Source of the DNA: Escherichia coli | GTDB lineage: Bacteria > Pseudomonadota > Gammaproteobacteria > Enterobacterales > Enterobacteriaceae | Direction: 5' to 3' (one strand) | NCBI RefSeq assembly: GCF_003334255.1 | Contig: NZ_QOWU01000011.1 | Length of the DNA: 64,000 bases | In this document: positions 60,053-60,410 of the stretch, one piece after another | Layout: each line of letters begins with the position of its first letter | Numbering within the stretch: position 1 is the stretch's first letter | Translations under genes and position numbers: made by a program | The notes under the pieces: model-generated | The model's database searches: none | What the model was told of the DNA's origin: nothing | What the model saw: the letters and a program-made list of their open reading frames with translations, nothing else

Positions 60053-60219
60053 TGTTCTCTTCTTCAGGTTAAAAAATAAGGCGCAACGAAGATAACAAAC
60101 CGCCGCGTTTAATGAAATGAGCAGCCTCTCCCTGACGCAAATTTTGCACAAAAAATAGGCTTTAGTGATTTGTTTTTGTTCAAAATCATGCCAAATCCGT
60201 GATCGGGGTAAAAAAAAGG

Positions 60220-60247
60220 TTGCATGAAAACGCGAGCGGAGTATAGT
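60220..60247 (+). promoter_or_regulatory. sigma70-like promoter of the tRNA-fMet gene (-35 TTGCAT, -10 TATAGT)
   Basis: Hexamers with 16-bp spacer about 13 nt upstream of the mature tRNA 5' end. Confidence 0.55.
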
Positions 60248-60260
60248 GCGCATCCACGGA

Positions 60261-60337
60261 CGCGGGGTGGAGCAGCCTGGTAGCTCGTCGGGCTCATAAC
60301 CCGAAGGTCGTCGGTTCAAATCCGGCCCCCGCAACCA
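60261..60337 (+). tRNA. initiator tRNA-fMet (anticodon CAT), 77 nt
   Basis: CGCGGGGTGGAGCAGCCTGGTAGCTCGTCGGGCTCATAACCCGAAGGTCGTCGGTTCAAATCCGGCCCCCGCAACCA: C1 mismatch and three consecutive G-C pairs in anticodon stem typical of bacterial initiator tRNA; encoded CCA. Confidence 0.95.
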
Positions 60338-60345
60338 ATTATTGA

Positions 60346-60368
60346 ACACCCTAACGGGTGTTTTTTTG
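60346..60368 (+). terminator. rho-independent terminator after tRNA-fMet
   Basis: ACACCC-taac-GGGTGT followed by T7. Confidence 0.8.
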
Positions 60369-60410
60369 TTTCTGGTCTCCCATAAAAAAGCGCCATTCAG
60401 CGCCTTTTTA

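What the first reader, a model, noticed from the sequence alone, without database searches (positions are those of the whole stretch)
60053..60410. Only one initiator tRNA-fMet gene between mltA and amiC
A single 77-nt tRNA-fMet with its own promoter and terminator occupies this interval. From memory, E. coli K-12 carries three tandem copies here (metZ-metW-metV). Tandem tRNA repeats can contract by homologous recombination, so this may be a strain-specific copy-number difference with possible consequences for initiator tRNA dosage, or an assembly collapse of tandem repeats.
Basis: partly seen in the sequence, partly recalled or inferred. Interest (0 to 1): 0.3.

Follow-up and report, generated by a model that had tools for sequence, protein, structure and literature searches.

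The report
Single-copy initiator tRNA array (metZWV)
The gap between mltA and amiC holds one normal initiator tRNA gene where most E. coli have three tandem copies; this minority state is seen in about 2% of finished genomes, comes from either a real repeat contraction or an assembly collapse, and is ordinary.

Summary
Window 60053-60410 is exactly the mltA-amiC intergenic region. It carries one 77-nt tRNA-fMet gene (60261-60337, +), a TTGCAT-N16-TATAGT promoter and a hairpin/T-run terminator.

The window's flanks are base-for-base identical to K-12 and to its three closest relatives (AH21, ETEC4073, MDK6L1). All of those have three copies. The only structural difference from AH21 over the 32 kb compared is a clean 220-bp absence, which is two repeat units.

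Among 5426 complete E. coli genomes I count:
- 1 copy: 109
- 2 copies: about 194
- 3 copies: about 4933
- 4 or more copies: 67
- other arrangements, such as island junctions: about 123

Single-copy genomes are scattered tips, not clades, and they cluster by sequencing project. They are strongly enriched for single-copy versions of other tandem tRNA arrays in the same assembly: leuQPV 33 of 109, valUXY 7, glyVXY 5. That pattern points to assembler collapse in roughly a third of them. The rest affect only metZWV and may be real contractions.

For this window, real contraction and collapse cannot be separated without reads; I put them at roughly 50:45. Either way this is a known locus and a known kind of variation. 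Interest is low.

The parts
58955..60052 (-). mltA (murein transglycosylase A), left flank of the interval
   Evidence: ORF list. The 1200 nt to the left of the tRNA are identical to BW25113, AH21, ETEC4073 and MDK6L1, where mltA is annotated.
60210..60217 (+). A-tract just upstream of the -35 hexamer (UP-element-like)
   Evidence: Read from the sequence. Function is inferred only.
60220..60247 (+). Putative sigma-70 promoter of the operon: -35 TTGCAT, 16-nt spacer, -10 TATAGT, followed by a GCGC discriminator
   Evidence: Read from the sequence and identical to the K-12 metZWV upstream region. PMC3017606 reports mutations at and next to the -10 box of the metZWV promoter that lower tRNA-fMet. 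The tool's stricter consensus scan did not call it.
60261..60337 (+). tRNA-fMet1 gene (initiator tRNA, anticodon CAT, CCA encoded), the only copy at this locus
   Evidence: ARAGORN, Rfam RF00005 at 61.4 bits, and a cloverleaf fold with position 1 unpaired. It is identical to each of the three K-12 copies.
60344..60373 (+). Intrinsic terminator: 8-bp stem GAACACCC/GGGTGTTT, loop TAAC, then a T-run
   Evidence: Terminator scan. It is the same trailer that follows metV in K-12.
60384..60409 (-). Hairpin with flanking A and T runs directly after the amiC stop codon, probably the amiC terminator
   Evidence: Read from the sequence. Inference only; the scan did not call it.
60411..61664 (-). amiC (N-acetylmuramoyl-L-alanine amidase), right flank
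   Evidence: ORF list. The 1200 nt to the right of the tRNA are identical to genomes where amiC is annotated.

Best explanation
This is the ordinary E. coli initiator-tRNA operon (the metZWV locus) reduced to one gene. A sigma-70 promoter drives a very short leader, one tRNA-fMet1 gene and an intrinsic terminator.

Compared with its closest relatives, the sequence lacks exactly two 110-bp repeat units (tRNA plus spacer). It keeps the metZ leader and the metV trailer intact.

The reading I rank first, by a narrow margin, is a real, recent and private contraction in this strain. It would arise by unequal homologous recombination or replication slippage between the identical 77-nt tRNA copies, which leaves no scar.

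Inferred consequence: the operon yields one tRNA per transcript instead of three. With metY elsewhere in the genome (not in the window), initiator tRNA gene dosage falls from four to two, and cellular tRNA-fMet to roughly half.

Shown: the structure, its identity to the K-12 flanks, the 220-bp difference and the population frequencies. Inferred: that the change happened in the cell, and its effect on dosage.
For: - **Clean two-unit loss.** The 1200-nt flanks on each side are identical to 3-copy genomes, and the array is 77 bp against 297 bp. The alignment to AH21 is gapless apart from this.
- **The array varies in nature.** About 194 genomes have 2 copies. 67 genomes have 4 or more and the maximum is 7. 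Some look like groups of near-identical genomes sequenced by different projects, so the variation looks heritable.
- **A positive control.** A comparable array, leuQPV, is single-copy in very many O157:H7 genomes from many projects. This looks like a contraction that has become fixed in a lineage.
- **metZWV stands out.** The single-copy state is 4-7 times commoner at metZWV (109) than at the similarly built glyVXY (15) or valUXY (26). At least 68 of the 109 show no collapse at the other three arrays. That fits a locus-specific biological cause.
- **Loss is tolerated.** Deleting all of metZWV is viable, with minor growth and cold-sensitivity defects, and tRNA-fMet level follows gene copy number (PMC3017606; PMC11480407). 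A slightly lower tRNA-fMet level gave a competitive advantage in low nutrients (Samhita 2014, as cited in PMC7949028).
Against: - **It is private.** The three closest complete genomes all have 3 copies, and no sizeable clade of single-copy genomes was seen.
- **Project clustering.** Single-copy calls cluster by sequencing project. One chicken-meat project contributes 11, across several sequence types at this locus.
- **Co-collapse in the same assemblies.** Single-copy metZWV co-occurs with single-copy leuQPV (33 against 8.5 expected, P=3e-12), valUXY (7 against 0.52, P=5e-7) and glyVXY (5 against 0.30, P=8e-6). This is most simply an assembler artefact.
- **Conflict with pedigree.** The MC1061 assembly has 1 copy, but DH10B, which from memory descends from MC1061, has 3.
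- **No discriminating signal.** A real contraction and a collapse give the same sequence, the source assembly is unknown, and the window has no other long-period tandem repeat to serve as an internal control.
Confidence: 0.5

Rival explanations
1. Assembly collapse. The strain really has three (or two) tandem copies, and the assembler or polisher merged the near-identical 110-bp units. The path leader-tRNA-trailer was written out with the spacer loops dropped.
For: - **Co-collapse.** Among 109 complete genomes with single-copy metZWV, 33 also have single-copy leuQPV (expected 8.5), 7 have single-copy valUXY (expected 0.52) and 5 have single-copy glyVXY (expected 0.30).
- **Project clustering across lineages.** GF chicken-meat genomes contribute 11, of which 8 also have collapsed leuQPV.
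- **Assembly against pedigree.** MC1061 has 1 copy while DH10B, from memory its descendant, has 3. 'MG1655p' has 1 while MG1655-type genomes have 3.
- **The window itself.** Its single-copy state is private, since the nearest relatives have 3 copies, and its genome is not among the finished genomes, so it may be a draft.
Against: - If collapse hit all arrays of this build equally, metZWV should be single-copy about as often as glyVXY (15) or valUXY (26). It is single-copy in 109 genomes.
- About two thirds of the single-copy metZWV genomes show no other collapsed array.
- Modern long reads span a 330-bp array with ease.
- Nothing in the window itself signals misassembly: there are no Ns and no other indel against AH21 in the 32 kb compared.
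Confidence: 0.45
2. Inherited lineage trait. The single copy is the ancestral or long-fixed state of the clade this genome belongs to, not a recent event.
For: Lineage-wide single-copy states seem to exist for another array, leuQPV in O157:H7. A few single-copy metZWV genomes of similar size from one project could be a small clone.
Against: The three closest complete genomes have three copies with the same two spacers as K-12. AH21 differs from the window by 6 mismatches in 28 kb, and all three have identical flanks. 91% of E. coli genomes have three copies.
Confidence: 0.03

Closest known systems
metZ-metW-metV operon of E. coli K-12 (tRNA-fMet1 genes at 63.5 min)
   Same: Same chromosomal position between mltA and amiC. 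The promoter region, leader, 77-nt tRNA sequence, trailer and terminator are all identical.
   Different: One tRNA gene instead of three. The two 33-nt inter-tRNA spacers are absent, so the array is 77 bp rather than 297 bp.
Single-copy metZWV loci in 109 complete E. coli genomes (for example J53, C3026, O104:H4 2011C-3493, Xuzhou21, N18-04097)
   Same: The same contiguous leader-tRNA-trailer arrangement at 98-100% identity over 197 nt.
   Different: None of these is the window's genome. The best 25-kb matches are imperfect, and the closest ones have three copies.
Copy-number change in tandem initiator-tRNA genes, known from experiments (amplification of initiator tRNA genes compensating formylation defects in Salmonella, Nilsson et al. 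2006, seen only as a reference in PMC7949028; engineered metZWV deletions, PMC3017606)
   Same: The same gene family and the same principle: initiator tRNA supply follows gene copy number, and repeats can gain or lose units.
   Different: Here the change is a loss of two units of unknown origin (in the cell or in the assembler), with no selection regime known.
PAI-metV / T6SS cluster downstream of metV in CFT073, W and other strains
   Same: It uses the same tRNA locus as its junction (PMC2660368, PMC3032704).
   Different: No island is present in the window. The tRNA is followed by the native K-12-type trailer and amiC.

Membership tests
Bacterial initiator tRNA (tRNA-fMet) | Anticodon CAU in a canonical cloverleaf | tested here: met
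   ARAGORN finds tRNA-Met (cat), Rfam tRNA scores 61.4 bits, and the minimum-free-energy fold is a cloverleaf.
Bacterial initiator tRNA (tRNA-fMet) | No Watson-Crick pair at 1:72 (C1 opposite A72) | tested here: met
   The sequence starts with C and has A before the ACCA end. Position 1 is unpaired in the fold.
Bacterial initiator tRNA (tRNA-fMet) | Three consecutive G-C pairs at the bottom of the anticodon stem (G29-G31 with C39-C41) | tested here: met
   The anticodon stem is UCGGG/CCCGA, read from the sequence and paired in the fold. The feature definition is taken from PMC3017606 and PMC7949028.
tRNA-fMet1 isoacceptor (metZWV type, as opposed to K-12 metY tRNA-fMet2) | G at position 46 (A46 in K-12 metY) | tested here: met
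   The variable loop reads AGGUC. The gene is identical to the K-12 metZ, metW and metV copies. The G46/A46 distinction is from PMC7949028.
metZWV operon, canonical three-gene tandem array | Location between mltA and amiC with the K-12 promoter region, leader and terminator | tested here: met
   There are no mismatches in 1200 nt on either side against BW25113.
metZWV operon, canonical three-gene tandem array | Three tandem tRNA genes separated by 33-nt spacers (period 110 bp) | tested here: not met
   The window has one copy only and no spacer sequence. It is therefore a contracted variant of the locus, not the canonical array.
tRNA-associated genomic island junction (PAI-metV type) | Foreign DNA starting at the 3' end of the tRNA | tested here: not met
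   The trailer is the native K-12 one and amiC follows directly. TUM14668 is the contrasting case.

The most novel reading that the evidence does not exclude
The contraction is real and is one instance of a recurrent, selectable change in dosage. On this reading E. coli populations keep shedding (1-2 copies, about 5.6% of genomes) or adding (4-7 copies, about 1.2%) initiator-tRNA genes at this array. Low-dosage variants would be favoured under nutrient limitation or long storage, at the price of slower growth in rich medium, cold sensitivity and looser start-codon fidelity. The excess of single-copy metZWV over the equally built glyVXY and valUXY arrays (109 against 15 and 26) would then reflect selection rather than artefact.
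Probability: 0.15. Interest if true: 0.4.

Novelty: already known. Interest (0 to 1): 0.12.

Why it matters
If the contraction is real, this strain makes roughly half the usual amount of initiator tRNA. Published work links that to slightly slower growth in rich medium, cold sensitivity, leakier start-site selection and possibly an advantage when nutrients are scarce. That is a modest strain-level phenotype, not a new mechanism.

The practical lesson is about data quality. In public 'complete' E. coli genomes, single-copy calls at short tandem tRNA arrays (metZWV, leuQPV, valUXY, glyVXY) co-occur in the same assemblies and the same sequencing projects. tRNA gene counts taken from assemblies should therefore be checked against reads before being read as biology.

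Tried and rejected
- **Coverage classes for counting copies.** I first tried counting copy number from the tool's '80% coverage' classes. This was unreliable, because pieces from 2-copy loci are joined and those from 3-copy loci are not. I replaced it with strict E-value cut-offs, so that only a contiguous arrangement of the required length can pass.
- **Identifying the source genome.** No complete genome matches window 1-25000 perfectly, so the assembly method stays unknown.
- **Internal control for collapse.** I looked for another long-period tandem repeat inside the window and found none.
- **Independent O104:H4 assembly.** I tried to check C227-11 by guessing coordinates. The region fetched was a different part of the chromosome, and I did not pursue it.
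- **Key papers.** Samhita et al. 2014 and Nilsson et al. 2006 are not held in the library. They are cited only through papers that cite them.
- **Rejected readings.** An island junction is ruled out because the native trailer is present. An ancestral single copy is ruled out because the closest relatives have three. An engineered deletion is unlikely because there is no scar or cassette and the flanks are identical to wild type.
- **Promoter scan.** The consensus scan found no site. The promoter assignment rests on identity to the K-12 upstream region and on the literature.

Full report
**What is there.**
The interval 60053-60410 is exactly the non-coding gap between the start of mltA (58955-60052, minus strand) and the stop of amiC (60411-61664, minus strand).

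ARAGORN finds one tRNA in the entire 64-kb window: tRNA-Met with anticodon CAT at 60261-60337 on the plus strand. Rfam's tRNA model hits the same place.

The 77-nt sequence has the marks of a bacterial initiator tRNA:
- C1 faces A72, and position 1 is unpaired in the predicted cloverleaf.
- The anticodon stem has three consecutive G-C pairs.
- A11 pairs with U24.
- G at position 46 makes it the fMet1 species encoded by metZ, metW and metV, not the A46 species of K-12 metY (PMC7949028).

Downstream there is an 8-bp hairpin followed by a T-run (60344-60373).

Upstream there is TTGCAT, a 16-nt spacer and TATAGT (60220-60247), with a GC-rich discriminator 13 nt before the mature 5' end. The tool's consensus scan did not call this site. 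It is base-for-base the K-12 metZWV upstream region, and mutations at and next to the K-12 -10 box lower tRNA-fMet (PMC3017606).

**Comparison with relatives.**
K-12 BW25113 has three identical 77-nt copies separated by two slightly different 33-nt spacers, giving a period of 110 bp and an array of 297 bp.

Window 56000-64000 is 100% identical to K-12-type genomes. Window 1-25000 is closest to a group of other E. coli genomes rather than to K-12, and no complete genome matches it perfectly.

The three closest genomes (ETEC4073, AH21, MDK6L1) all carry three copies with the same two spacers as K-12.

Against AH21, window 32000-60341 aligns without a single gap (6 mismatches in 28,342 nt) and window 60259-63779 is identical. 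The only structural difference is that 220 bp, exactly two repeat units, are missing from the window.

The metZ leader and the metV trailer are both intact. This is what recombination or slippage between identical tRNA copies produces, and also what an assembler produces when it collapses the repeat.

**How common the state is.**
I counted arrangements in 5426 complete E. coli genomes. The queries and E-value cut-offs were set so that only a contiguous arrangement of the needed length could pass.

| Arrangement | Genomes |
|---|---|
| Inter-tRNA spacer junction present (2 or more copies) | 5194 |
| Spacer-tRNA-spacer (3 or more copies) | 5000 |
| Four or more copies | 67 |
| Contiguous leader-tRNA-trailer (1 copy) | 109 |

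This gives about 2.0% with one copy, 3.6% with two, 91% with three and 1.2% with four or more. The maximum is seven (six spacer junctions in one genome).

About 123 genomes have neither a spacer nor the contiguous single-copy form. In TUM14668 a type VI secretion island starts right after the tRNA, which is the known PAI-metV.

These figures are approximate at the level of a few tens, because the spacer totals do not add up exactly.

**Real contraction or assembly collapse.**
The single-copy genomes are spread over many backgrounds. They include K-12 laboratory strains, O104:H4, O157:H7 Xuzhou21, ETEC and food and wastewater isolates. I saw no sizeable clade of them.

They cluster by sequencing project:
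- 11 come from one chicken-meat series, spanning several sequence types at this locus.
- 9 come from one wastewater series.
- 5 come from the TUM series.
- J53 with ME8067, and MC1061 with OV2, are pairs from single submissions.

As controls I built synthetic single-copy versions of three other E. coli arrays of the same build: three identical tRNAs with a period of 112-121 bp.

| Control array | Single-copy genomes | Also single-copy at metZWV | Expected by chance | P |
|---|---|---|---|---|
| glyVXY | 15 | 5 | 0.30 | 8e-6 |
| valUXY | 26 | 7 | 0.52 | 5e-7 |
| leuQPV | 425 | 33 | 8.5 | 3e-12 |

Many of the 425 single-copy leuQPV genomes are O157:H7 from many projects, which looks like a true lineage trait. 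In the chicken-meat project, 8 of the 11 metZWV-single genomes are also leuQPV-single.

Independent deletions at two or three unlinked arrays, in unrelated strains from one project, are not credible as biology. This is evidence that roughly a third of the single-copy calls (between 33 and about 41 of 109) come from collapse-prone assemblies.

On the other side:
- The single-copy state is 4-7 times commoner at metZWV than at glyVXY or valUXY.
- About two thirds of the metZWV cases show no other collapsed array.
- Expansions to 4-7 copies, and the O157:H7 leuQPV state, suggest that such arrays do change in nature.

K-12 derivatives alone range from one to four copies in their assemblies. The MC1061 assembly has one copy although DH10B, which from memory descends from MC1061, has three. 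That case also has collapsed glyVXY, which points to artefact.

**Verdict for this window.**
The window holds no other long-period tandem repeat to serve as an internal control. The other arrays lie outside it, and its source assembly is not among the finished genomes. The sequence alone therefore cannot separate the two causes.

I put a real, recent, private contraction at about 0.50, assembler collapse at about 0.45 and an inherited lineage state at about 0.03.

**What it would do if real.**
The operon has one promoter, so one gene instead of three means a third of the tRNA-fMet1 output. With metY elsewhere (not visible here), gene dosage falls from four to two.

Published work supports the following:
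- Initiator tRNA levels track gene copy number.
- Loss of the whole operon is viable, but gives slower growth, cold sensitivity and initiation by non-initiator tRNAs (PMC3017606; PMC11480407).
- A slightly lower tRNA-fMet level gave a competitive advantage in poor medium (Samhita et al. 2014, as cited in PMC7949028).

A two-gene strain would be expected to show a mild version of these effects. This is inference and was not tested.

**Comparison with what is known, and novelty.**
The locus, the gene, the tandem array, its dispensability and the general instability of tandem repeats are all established.

What this work adds is a frequency table for the array in finished genomes. It also shows that single-copy calls at several tRNA arrays co-occur within assemblies and projects. 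That is a useful caution for anyone counting tRNA genes from assemblies, but it is not a new biological system.

Noticed in passing
window 235-392 (-), 37030-37389 (-), 55570-55775 (+), 58791-58833 (-): Rfam matches above the gathering score to known small RNAs: a sok-type antitoxin RNA, CsrB, GcvB, and ES036/CssrF between tcdA and mltA.
   Followed up: no
L005 (TUM14668) 2362-2700 and onwards; L004 (ST648) 3154-6359: In some E. coli the same tRNA is an island junction. In TUM14668 a different trailer and a type VI secretion cluster (tssB, tssC) follow the tRNA directly, which is the known PAI-metV. In ST648 there is no tRNA beside mltA, and sugar-metabolism and PTS genes sit there instead. 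About 123 of 5426 genomes have neither an inter-tRNA spacer nor the contiguous single-copy form.
   Followed up: partly
E. coli genome collection; leuQPV locus (L010 = MG1655 4605600-4606900): A single-copy leuQPV arrangement occurs in 425 of 5426 complete genomes. A large block of these are O157:H7 genomes from many projects at the same 99.0% identity, which looks like a heritable lineage trait rather than an artefact.
   Followed up: partly
E. coli genome collection (assemblies from the GF, TUM, AVS, PapRG/PapM and HS13-1/HS30-1 series, MC1061 and OV2, and O104:H4 2011C-3493): Single-copy versions of different tandem tRNA arrays (metZWV, leuQPV, valUXY, glyVXY) pile up in the same assemblies and the same sequencing projects. 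This suggests a systematic collapse of short tandem tRNA arrays in some public 'complete' genomes.
   Followed up: partly
K-12 derivative assemblies in E. coli genomes: Assemblies of K-12 laboratory strains differ at this array. One copy: J53, ME8067, C3026, MG1655p, MC1061, OV2. Two copies: MT102, DH5a, C600. Three copies: BW25113, DH10B, HST04. Four copies: XL10-Gold.
   Followed up: partly
window 60384-60409: A hairpin flanked by an A-run and a T-run sits immediately after the amiC stop codon. It could be amiC's terminator, or a bidirectional terminator shared with the tRNA operon. The scan did not call it.
   Followed up: no
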